A stretch of 63,673 bases of DNA, the filler included, from Kipferlia bialata (taxonomy: Eukaryota): assembly GCA_003568945.1 (NCBI GenBank). It is 7 parts of 7 records of this genome, joined end to end, with 100 filler letters (N's around TTAATTAATTAA, not from the genome) between each part and the next. Parts side by side here need not be neighbours in the genome. Positions count along the whole stretch, not along the records: positions 38,923 to 51,770 come from BDIP01001020.1; 6 more parts are not named here. The stretch is one strand, 5' to 3'. The notes beneath the pieces were generated by a model. That model was not told where the DNA came from, ran no database searches, and saw only the letters and a program-made list of their open reading frames with translations. Position 1 is the stretch's first letter; the number at the start of each line of letters is the position of its first letter. Shown in pieces: positions 45,401 through 48,400 of the stretch. Position numbers and translations under genes: made by a program.

Positions 45401-48400
45401 TAATACACACGATACTATTGAACTCAATTGCAAAATACATACATATATTAATATACATATATATATGGAGGAGGAGCCAACGCCATCCATCTGGGGTGAG
45501 AGAATGAGTATTACTACACAATGAAATAATACTATACTATATATACATTCCTGAGTGAGTAGCTCTGAGACCAGTCTCCTGCTGGACTCATGGGCACCCT
45601 CGCCCCTCTGGCCTGGGGTGAGAGATAGATATAAATAATTATACTTAAATATTATTATACATATATGTACATATATATATACATGTATTTATATATATAT
45701 ATATATTATACACTAATACCATGGGCACCCTCACCCCTCTGGCCTGGGGTGAGTATGGAATATAGAGATGTATACATACAAATACATATATATGTATAAG
45801 AGCTACAACGATACACTTCATATATAAGAGAGAAGAAGAAATATATACCAGCCAGGGCATCAATCTCATCGAAGAACAAATGAGCTTATACTATATTATG
45901 AACCATTGAGCTAATACTACAATATGGATATATATATATGAATATATATATGTGTGTGTGTGTACACTATACATGTCGTACACACCTGCGAGGGCATCAA
46001 TCTCGTCGAAGAATATGACACTGGGTGCATAGAACCTGGCCATGTTGAACAGACACCTGGTGTCAATCAATCAATCAATCAANNNNNNNNNNNNNNNNNN
46101 NNNNNNNNNNNNNNNNNNNNNNNNNNNNNNNNNNNNNNNNNNNNNNNNNNNNNNNNNNNNNNNNNNNNATCATTCTATCTATATATATATACTGGGGGCA
46201 TAGAACCTGGCCATGTTGAACAGACACCTGGTGTCAATATGAGATATAGCATATAATACACTATAGAATGCACAGTCACAAAATTAATGAGAACGTGATT
46301 GAATAGACACAATGATACCTATGTATATATACTGTTATAGAGTGTCTCATACTTTGCCAGTTTCTCAGCATCTCCCCTCCACTTTGAGGCCAGGGTGGAT
46401 GCAGAGCATATATGTAAATACATATAGTATTCTATATATACATATATAATATATCTCGTACTTTGCCAGTTTCTCAGCATCCCCCCACCCTCTCTCTCTA
46501 TATATACAGTTGTTCGTACTTAGCCAGTTTCTCTGCGTCCCCCCTCCACTTTGAGGCCAGGGTGGATGCAGAGCAGGAGAAGAATGTAGTGCCACACTCT
46601 GTAGCAACGGCCTTGGCAAGCATGGTCTGGATAATAAGGGTGTAGAGGGAGAGAGAGAGAGAGAGAGCAGGAGAAGAATGTGGTGCCACACTCGGTGGCA
46701 ACGGCCTTAGCAAGCATAGTCTGATATTAGGGGTGTAGAGGGAGAGAGAGAGAGAGAGAGAGCACGAGAAGGAGAGAGAGAAAGAGAGAGCTGTACCTTT
46801 CCTGTGCCTGGGGGGCCAAACATGAGAACGCCCTTCCAGGGACGGATGTTGCTGTGGTAAGGTAAGGGTTACATAAATACATACATGAATGTGATCCAGA
46901 TGCTGACAGTACTGAATATAATTGAGCAAGTATGTGAGGAAGCAAGATTACACCAGTGTTTGTGATACTGAATGTATTAAGGTGCCTGTAAACAGTGGGC
47001 TCAATACTATGTGTGGATATGAACTCATCTATACATATACATATGTACCTGTTGCGGAACAGCTTTGGCTGCACCACGGGTAGATGATTAATAGGTAACG
47101 TTACCTTCAAATATTCACCAATGTATATTAATCTCATGTAGATCCATATACCTGTTCAGGAACAGCTTTGGCTGCACTAGTGGCAGAACCACAGCCTCCT
47201 GCAGTAGCCTCTTGGCCTCATGGAGACCTGGTGGTAAGGCATATATAATACACATGATTATACACAATGGAAAAGAAGAATCAATATATACTGCATAGAG
47301 TAGCCTCTTGGCCTCATGGAGACCTAAGAGGTTAGGCATATACATTCAAATTTCAATATACACATAATACATATATACTCGCTACAAATACATATATAGT
47401 AGCCTTGACTCTAGTATATATTCATATATAGATACACAAATTTACATCCATGCATGTATATATACATACCTGCCACGTCTTCCCATTTCACCCCTGGCCC
47501 ATGGTCCAGCATGTCACTCTCAATCACGGAGACAAACTCAGCCTCTTGAGCTCCCTGGGGGTAAGGATATACTCTCTCTCTCTATATATAAATATATACT
47601 CTATATCTGTTCAGCCTCTTGAGCTCCCTGGAGGGTTAGTCTACACGTCCAAATAGAACTGTGATTTTTACTCAACATCCTGGGCGCCCTATGAAGTAAA
47701 TATTACCCCCCTCATATATCCATATACTAATACACTGTACCTGCGGCTTGTACTTCTTGCCCTCCTCTCTCTATCCCCCTCTCTCTCTCAATATGTACAT
47801 ATATACATACATATATGTAAATATATATACATGTATCCCATACCTGCGGCTTGTACTTCTTGCCCTCCTCCTCGACCCTCTTGTCCTCTCTCTCCTGGGG
47901 GTTAGAATACACTGATATATATATATATATATACATATATTTATATATATATACATATGAATATACTCTAATGACCCTCTTGTCCTCTCTCTCCTGATGG
48001 TTAGAATAGTACATATATACACTACCACCAACAATACATGCATGTATATATGTACCTGGTATGGGTTCTGCCTCCATGGTCTGCTCCATTATATATATAT
48101 ATATAAATATACACATGTATATACTATTAATATATATATATAGTATATACACATTTTATACCTGGTATGGGTTCTGCCTCCATGGTCTGCTCCATTATAT
48201 ATATATATAAATATATACACATGTATATACTATTAATATATATATATAGTATATAGTATATACACATTATATACCTGGTATGGGTTCTGCCTCCATGGTC
48301 TGCCTCTCTCTCTATACATATATATACATACATATATATATATATATATATCCTACTACTATTATATATACACACATTCACTAAACACTGTACCTGGTAT

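What the first reader, a model, noticed from the sequence alone, without database searches (positions are those of the whole stretch)
46353..46720. Echo copies differ from the real exon almost only at synonymous sites
Seen: the 5' echo ACT ATG CTT GCT AAG GCC GTT GCC ACC GAG TGT GGC ACC versus the exon ACC ATG CTT GCC AAG GCC GTT GCT ACA GAG TGT GGC ACT gives 5/5 synonymous differences. The 3' echo GGA GAT GCT GAG AAA CTG GCA versus GGG GAC GCA GAG AAA CTG GCT gives 4/4 synonymous. At 51084-51440 the differences are Ser TCA/TCC/TCT and Ala GCC/GCT only. Established: a tandem duplicate decaying neutrally should gain mostly non-synonymous changes. Inference: the fragments diverged while coding, so they came from divergent alleles or donors, or are recycled into the live exon by conversion or recombination. 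This implies extensive genetic exchange or high ploidy.
Basis: partly seen in the sequence, partly recalled or inferred. Interest (0 to 1): 0.9.

Follow-up and report, generated by a model that had tools for sequence, protein, structure and literature searches.

The report
Introns store other alleles' exon ends
In the protist Kipferlia bialata, many introns hold skipped copies of the neighbouring exon's end that differ from the working exon mostly at silent positions, too often for dead duplicates, so they are likely leftovers copied from strongly diverged alleles, which would be a record of hidden genetic exchange inside one genome.

Summary
Confirmed, and general in this window. The DNA is Kipferlia bialata; the cited exon belongs to katanin p60. 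In 8 gene models, 119 'echoes' (exon end + splice site + about 70 nt of spacer; unit median 109 bp) lie on 88 of 186 exon sides. A spliced contig uses the outermost splice sites and matches the live exons at 39 of 39 diagnostic positions. Counting one echo per array, 162 of 229 differences are silent; pN/pS is 0.13 (bootstrap 0.08-0.19). The data beat both, also between two echoes (39 of 59 silent). Echo splice signals are diverged yet mostly valid, and spacers resemble the resident intron in only 5 of 119. Simulations fit with inter-allelic copying at silent diversity near 0.2. That donor was not seen: no second haplotype appeared in the one DNA run, and no other strain was found. The mechanism is therefore inferred. 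This scan noted similar copies earlier in a sea urchin, at the dead-copy level (43 of 107). Ten literature searches gave no description.

The parts
46520..46626 (-). Live katanin p60 exon 12 (AAA domain, [17 protein letters not shown]...)
   Evidence: In spliced contig X2 record 9 with 0 other letters; homologues are katanin p60
46664..46734 (-). 5' echo: own branch point and AG acceptor plus the first 57 nt of exon 12, ending in a (CT)n run; 5 silent differences; unit 94 bp
46462..46489 (-). Near 3' echo: last 28 nt of exon 12, followed by a GT donor; 3 silent differences, 1 replacement at the edge
   Evidence: its junction is bridged by DNA contig 46379-46570
46353..46408 (-). Far 3' echo: last 56 nt of exon 12, followed by a GT donor; 4 silent differences
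51084..51179 (-). First modelled katanin exon ([15 protein letters not shown]...), live
51253..51439 (-). Two 5' echoes of that exon (51304-51253, 51439-51388), same breakpoint, three Ser codon states
50973..51028 (-). More diverged 3' echo of that exon: 7 silent and 7 replacement differences, no stop
42403..51179 (-). Katanin p60 gene, 22 modelled exons, 490 aa, 43 echoes (49 silent, 14 replacement unique differences after trimming)
14634..25463 (+). Unnamed 33-exon gene model (0 stops, against 31 and 42 in the other frames), 42 echoes (93 silent, 35 replacement)
18313..18918 (+). Five-echo array before exon 18849-18918; copies carry different silent variants and different valid acceptors
32558..36851 (+). 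Alpha/beta-hydrolase gene, 15 exons, 20 echoes (31 silent, 25 replacement)
   Evidence: Model agrees with KIPB_004672 at 361 of 361 aligned residues; counts
36920..36971 (+). Echo of the last exon lying beyond the stop codon, with no splice site; 3 silent differences and TAG in place of TGA
37354..38626 (-). Small coiled-coil gene (CCDC25-like, name recalled), 5 echoes; one lies past the stop and has TAA in place of TAG
61841..63590 (+). RNA-binding protein gene (Cwc2-like, name recalled), 5 echoes (9 silent, 2 replacement)

Best explanation
The echoes are skipped tandem copies, about 110 bp long, of an exon end with its splice site and a piece of intron, and one copy of each pair likely comes from a strongly diverged working allele by out-of-register recombination between homologues. 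Shown: the anatomy, the skipping of echoes in one mRNA contig, and pN/pS of about 0.13. Inferred steps: (1) alleles or strains differ by about 0.2-0.3 at silent sites and have unalignable, (TA)n-rich introns, so only exon ends and splice motifs can pair; (2) repair of a break copies about 110 nt from the other allele and rejoins at a short dinucleotide match, leaving two copies that were both coding until then, or else an old echo is overwritten from another allele's exon; (3) selection keeps only events that leave one whole exon between the outermost splice sites, or that fall beyond the stop codon; (4) the echo then decays slowly (pN about 0.03) or is replaced; (5) loss of heterozygosity after crossing would leave the isolate without a visible second allele. 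That the spliceosome picks the shortest acceptor-to-donor exon (exon definition) is inferred from the sites used.
For: One echo per array: 162 silent, 67 replacement; pN/pS 0.13, bootstrap 0.08-0.19; P=5e-19 against 0.416. A dead-copy simulation through the same pipeline gave 0.41-0.49 silent, observed 0.72. Echo against echo, neither live: 39 silent, 20 replacement, pN/pS 0.16. pN stays at 0.029-0.035 while pS runs from 0.12 to 0.54. Replacements are no more conservative than random (P=0.11), as expected for later decay. Six of 44 multi-base codon differences keep the amino acid, three of them Ser AGY/TCN swaps, and two echoes swap one stop codon for another. No echo acceptor (0 of 55) equals the live 16-mer, yet 41 of 55 keep branch point plus YAG, and the AG positions mismatch at 0.02 and 0.09. 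Echo flanks resemble the live intron flank in only 5 of 119. Forward simulation: copying from another individual's allele at piS 0.22-0.26 gave pS 0.24-0.30, pN 0.03-0.04, ratio 0.11-0.15; four self-donor runs gave 0.48-1.04. A dinucleotide run lies within 14 nt of 59 of 119 breakpoints, against 25% background. PMC8516963 section 8 (read): metamonads lack Ku70/Ku80, and all examined Fornicata lost Rad51A and have two Dmc1 paralogues. PMC6719624 (abstract): Dmc1 stabilises mismatched heteroduplex.
Against: No donor was seen. One search lists no other letters for X1 or X2 over 5131 bases. One search shows no second close K. bialata copy of the WD40 exon among proteins of 194-2000 aa. Two metagenome scans found no related strain. 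The silent diversity needed (about 0.2) is near the highest I recall for eukaryotes; at piS 0.03 the simulation gave 0.45. PMC5874029 (passages) infers a diploid whose assembly size matches the k-mer size, which suggests collapsed, similar haplotypes. The triad test does not separate independent donors from a fast-changing live exon (5 of 31 observed; 8.9 and 2.8 expected). Only 2 three-state sites were found, so few donors could suffice. One small gene ran the other way (1 silent, 3 replacement). The mechanistic steps were not tested.
Confidence: 0.6

Rival explanations
1. Fast live-exon clock without sex: live exons mutate several times faster than intronic echoes (for example by error-prone RNA-templated repair), selection passes only silent changes, and echoes are snapshots refreshed from the same chromosome.
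For: Differences private to the live exon are 32 silent and 1 replacement; the ladder model is not rejected (P=0.14). It needs no diverged allele, which fits.
Against: It needs roughly a sevenfold rate excess and a heavy load of replacements. Intronic positions next to the splice sites differ more, not less, than silent sites (0.27-0.55 against 0.24). Echo branches carry 48 silent and 27 replacement private changes.
Confidence: 0.13
2. A persistent hybrid or polyploid cell: diverged homeologous copies coexist and exchange exon ends.
For: Gives the same low pN/pS. Few three-state sites (2) suit a small number of donors. Diploidy is inferred in PMC5874029 (passages).
Against: No second haplotype or homeologous transcript was listed at 85% likeness and 5% share, and depth is even. 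No close paralogue.
Confidence: 0.08
3. Echoes are themselves under protein-level selection, because minor isoforms or other life stages use them, or because their splice sites serve stepwise removal of nested introns.
For: 99 of 107 echoes that reach a junction keep AG or GT; some indels in echoes are multiples of three (read).
Against: Echoes carry only one splice site and run into low-complexity spacer. The mRNA contig has the live base at 39 of 39 diagnostic sites. RNA depth over the two far echoes of exon 12 is 0.76, against 84.8 over the exon (contig depth is a weak measure). Echoes also occur beyond stop codons. Nested splicing would not explain codon periodicity.
Confidence: 0.08
4. 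Programmed or frequent DNA-level collapse of echo onto exon, as with paralogous segments in ciliate germlines.
For: The anatomy resembles the partial MDS duplications described in PMC9797194 (passages).
Against: None of the 15 listed joints (of 31) joins an echo to its own exon in X1. Collapse within a lineage gave pN/pS of 0.48 or more. The echoes are removed within GT-AG introns.
Confidence: 0.04
5. Assembly artefact: alleles or strains chained in tandem at microsatellites.
For: Short-read assembly with gaps; many breakpoints touch dinucleotide runs; X1 may be the run from which the window was assembled.
Against: Contigs of X1 bridge 6 of 26 echo breakpoints in the laid stretch with at least 31 nt on both sides, 0 other letters and even depth (only the longest 8 DNA pieces were listed). 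A true allele would continue into the rest of the exon, not into spacer.
Confidence: 0.04
6. Ordinary dead tandem duplicates; the silent bias comes from selection on the live exon alone, as was concluded for the sea urchin case.
For: Explains 42-49% silent differences; 3 of 41 echo-echo spacer pairs are clearly recent exact duplications.
Against: Observed 63-72% silent; P=1e-14 even untrimmed; the echo-echo comparison and the flat pN contradict it.
Confidence: 0.03

Closest known systems
Intron gain by tandem duplication of coding DNA with a proto-splice site (PMC3265369, PMC2891723; abstracts read)
   Same: A local duplication of exon sequence ends up inside an intron and the outer sites are used.
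   Different: Echoes sit in existing introns, carry a full acceptor or donor, create no new intron position, occur on 88 of 186 exon sides, and differ like coding alleles.
Tandem exon duplication and mutually exclusive exons (recalled)
   Same: Neighbouring copies with low dN/dS.
   Different: The copies here are partial, have one splice site, and are skipped in the mRNA contig.
Repeats spanning an exon-intron boundary, including the sea urchin case e1-9861148 of this scan
   Same: Head-to-tail copies of a splice junction inside an intron.
   Different: There 43 of 107 differences were silent (dead-copy level); here 63-72%, with intron parts mostly unrelated.
Partial MDS duplications in ciliate germlines (PMC9797194; passages read)
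   Same: Many short local duplications of coding segments beside the working copy.
   Different: Those are resolved by DNA rearrangement; here removal is by splicing and no rearranged form was seen.
Microhomology-ended tandem duplications from aborted homologous recombination, as in BRCA1-deficient cells (recalled)
   Same: Narrow size class, head-to-tail, low-complexity junctions.
   Different: Those are copied from the sister or the same molecule and are identical at birth; they are also mostly far longer.

Membership tests
Mutually exclusive / tandem duplicated exons | Each copy is a whole exon with acceptor and donor | tested here: not met
   Echoes cover a median 36 nt of exons of median 70 nt, with one splice site
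Mutually exclusive / tandem duplicated exons | Copies are used in mRNA | tested here: not met
   One spliced contig, 8 listed exon pieces, live base at 39 of 39 diagnostic sites; minor isoforms are not excluded
Mutually exclusive / tandem duplicated exons | dN/dS well below 0.5 between copies | tested here: met
   pN/pS 0.13
Intron gain by tandem duplication | The duplicate lies within coding DNA and makes a new intron position at AG|GT | tested here: not met
   Units span existing junctions; removing them leaves core introns of 25-284 nt, similar to echo-free introns of 69-358 nt
Boundary-spanning minisatellite (dead copies) | The whole unit, intron part included, is similar between copies | tested here: not met
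   5 of 119 echo-live and 3 of 41 echo-echo flank pairs pass the 99th percentile
Boundary-spanning minisatellite (dead copies) | Silent share near 0.42-0.49 | tested here: not met
   0.72 observed
Ciliate-type programmed rearrangement | A second, rearranged DNA form lacking the spacer | tested here: inconclusive
   No such joint among 15 of 31 listed; contigs only
Inter-homologue recombination product | The donor allele exists in the cell or population | not testable with these tools
   One DNA run held as contigs; no other strain found
Inter-homologue recombination product | Microhomology at the junction | tested here: inconclusive
   Dinucleotide runs beside 59 of 119 breakpoints against 25% background; true microhomology needs the parental alleles

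The most novel reading that the evidence does not exclude
Kipferlia, in a group reported to lack Rad51A and Ku, routinely repairs breaks from diverged homologues, and each mis-registered repair leaves about 110 bp of another allele in an intron. Its introns then form an ordered archive of population alleles, from which silent diversity (about 0.25) and cryptic sex in a metamonad can be read from one genome; the process is also the main source of intron growth in these genes (about 93-110 bp per echo) and requires exon-definition splicing in a protist with a reduced spliceosome.
Probability: 0.4. Interest if true: 0.9.

Novelty: new variant of a known kind. Interest (0 to 1): 0.8.

Why it matters
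Whether metamonads (Giardia and relatives) have sex, and how they repair DNA without Ku and Rad51A, are open questions. If echoes are allele fragments, thousands of them genome-wide (an extrapolation from 4-6 repeat pairs per kb in echo-rich genes) would give a direct estimate of diversity and recombination tract length from a single isolate. The anatomy also shows a route of intron expansion and a natural test of splice-site choice, since intact inner acceptors and donors are skipped. In practice, echoes can mislead gene prediction and RNA mapping in this genome.

Tried and rejected
No whole genome is held, so the test covers this window only. One search listed 2 runs of one sample, none on record as RNA; X2 is called RNA by guess, but its record 9 is plainly spliced. 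Reads were laid on one 5131-base katanin stretch only, so exon use in the other 7 models rests on open frames and, for two, on the annotated protein P0121. One search used a wrong frame and found nothing. Metagenome scans: a 22-nt intron-end motif gave 0 matches; a long-exon protein gave 596 pattern hits and 0 confirmed. Rows dropped before counting: 7 of 126 candidates scoring under 34, low-complexity matches, and three terminal exons with uncertain frame (near 14201, 25556 and 38800). One model (60300-59246) kept no echo at the threshold. Distance order is not a clear age order (near echo less diverged in 10 of 24 arrays, more in 5, tied in 9). CpG context raises the difference rate (16 of 38 against 89 of 482 fourfold sites) but covers few sites. 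Two self-donor simulation runs drifted to a fixed, decayed echo, which inflates their ratios (0.71, 1.04). Literature: 10 searches, judged from listings and abstract starts; none describes these echoes. Passages of the genome paper PMC5874029 found by keyword report intron number only; its supplements were not read and could bear on this. Earlier findings of this scan: none for this genome, one for a sea urchin.

Full report
Setting. The window is a string of contigs joined by N-linker-N spacers. An exon at 31154-31483 is 100% identical to KIPB_004672 of Kipferlia bialata, whose contig length (12860) equals that of the window's third contig. The organism is thus a free-living fornicate protist. 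The cited exon belongs to katanin p60 on the minus strand. My 22-exon model gives 490 aa and aligns end to end with three katanin homologues at 41-43% identity.

Observation. The live exon is the one named. A 1672-nt contig of run X2 is spliced, and its 8 listed pieces (676 nt) match the modelled exons with no other letters. These pieces contain 39 positions where some echo differs, and the contig has the live base at all of them. The splice sites used are the outermost ones of each intron: the first donor and the last acceptor.

Anatomy. I built 8 gene models by the outermost-site rule (93 exons). A 33-exon model has 0 stops, against 31 and 42 in the other frames, and two models agree with the annotated protein at 152 of 152 and 361 of 361 residues. 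Aligning each exon to its neighbouring introns gave 126 candidates, 119 at score 34 or more; only 4 of 1654 non-adjacent exon-intron pairs reach that score. They form 88 arrays on 186 exon sides, 24 with two to five copies, often sharing a breakpoint. A unit is an exon end (median 36 nt), its splice site, and a (TA)n/(CT)n-rich spacer (median 73 nt); unit length has median 109 bp, with 80% between 88 and 133. Median intron length rises from 120 nt with no echo to 220, 335 and 416 nt with one, two and three. Echoes also lie beyond stop codons, so a splice site is not needed to make them. They are regional: 4-6 repeat pairs per kb in three stretches, and none in the 12.9-kb first contig or in the 7.2-kb contig with an intron-rich xanthine dehydrogenase-like gene (name recalled), where (TA)n is under 1%.

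Is the bias real? Untrimmed, 245 of 380 differences are silent (pN/pS 0.17); trimmed at the ragged end, 227 of 314 (0.12); counting shared variants once, 209 of 334 and 193 of 278. With the nearest echo per array only, it is 162 of 229, pN/pS 0.13, bootstrap 0.08-0.19. A frame-free scan agrees: 447 of 922 mismatch spacings are multiples of 3. Neutral decay predicts 27% silent. The fair null is a dead copy beside a selected exon, which predicts 41.6% and gave 41-49% when simulated through the same detection steps. By gene, trimmed and unique, silent:replacement is katanin 49:14, the 33-exon gene 93:35, hydrolase 31:25, and the small models 5:3, 5:3, 9:2 and 1:3.

What the pattern requires. In one lineage only one copy is live at a time, so pN/pS should not fall much below 0.5. 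Forward simulations with conversion in either direction on the same chromosome gave 0.48-1.04. Copying from another individual's allele gave 0.11-0.15, with pS 0.24-0.30 and pN 0.03-0.04 when silent diversity was 0.22-0.26, but 0.45 when it was 0.03. The observed values are pS 0.24 and pN 0.028. Further signs point to a coding past for each copy. Echo against echo gives 39 silent of 59. pN is flat across pS classes. Three Ser AGY/TCN swaps, three two-base Leu swaps and two stop-for-stop swaps occur. Echo acceptors never equal the live 16-mer (0 of 55) but keep branch point and YAG in 41 of 55, and 99 of 107 echoes reaching a junction keep AG or GT. Spacers match the resident intron in only 5 of 119, although a young duplicate with 3% decay should match closely. 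The replacements look like later random decay (BLOSUM test P=0.11).

Mechanism, inferred. I propose out-of-register recombination with a diverged homologue, pairing only through exon ends and splice motifs and rejoining at dinucleotide runs (beside 59 of 119 breakpoints, background 25%). Selection then keeps events that leave one whole exon. PMC8516963 (section 8 read) reports that metamonads lack Ku70/Ku80 and that all examined fornicates lost Rad51A and keep two Dmc1 paralogues; PMC6719624 (abstract) reports that Dmc1 stabilises mismatched joints. This makes the route plausible but does not show it.

Against. No donor allele is visible: one search lists no other letters in either run and long DNA pieces have depth 313-386, though contigs drop variants and X1 may be the source of the assembly. 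No other strain turned up. The diversity required is extreme. The triad test lies between independent donors and a fast-changing live exon, so an exon-targeted mutagenic process remains open. Artefact is unlikely: 6 of 26 breakpoints in the laid stretch are bridged by the 8 listed DNA pieces with no differences.

Verdict. Ten searches of the held library gave no description of the feature. I class it as a new variant of junction-spanning tandem duplication, interest 0.8, with 0.6 confidence in an inter-allelic source.

Noticed in passing
window 45549-45550 (minus strand): The katanin intron after exon 45612-45551 begins GA, not GT; the frame and the homologue alignment (ELLTQ|MDGV) require it. 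A GC donor is modelled at 19412.
   Followed up: partly
window 46627-46660, 46721-46750, 50796-50830, 50846-50880, 17305-17335, 17470-17504, 19075-19105: A near-identical intron 3' end, (CT)n followed by a fixed 17-nt motif ending in AG, recurs in unrelated genes (7 hits). DNA contig depth over it is about 1500 times the single-copy level, with many different exons attached: a possible introner-like or homogenised intron-end family.
   Followed up: partly
window 51871-59073 and 1-12881: Echo-free regions: a xanthine dehydrogenase-like gene (about 35 branch-point/acceptor motifs, short introns) and a contig of long-exon genes have no echoes and almost no (TA)n.
   Followed up: partly
window 31152-36851: The public protein KIPB_004672 joins a WD40 (eIF3i-like, name recalled) part to an alpha/beta hydrolase across a poly-C run near 32150; probably two genes fused by annotation or scaffolding.
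   Followed up: partly
window 45720-45743 (minus strand): One 5' echo is 24 nt long, has an acceptor and is followed directly by GT, so it could act as an in-frame mini-exon.
   Followed up: no
window 51480-51510 (minus strand): A still older echo of the first katanin exon, below the detection score, seems to differ at most third positions (read by eye).
   Followed up: no
window 48049-48425: Two of the spacers in this array are nearly identical, so exact duplication within a lineage also occurs.
   Followed up: yes
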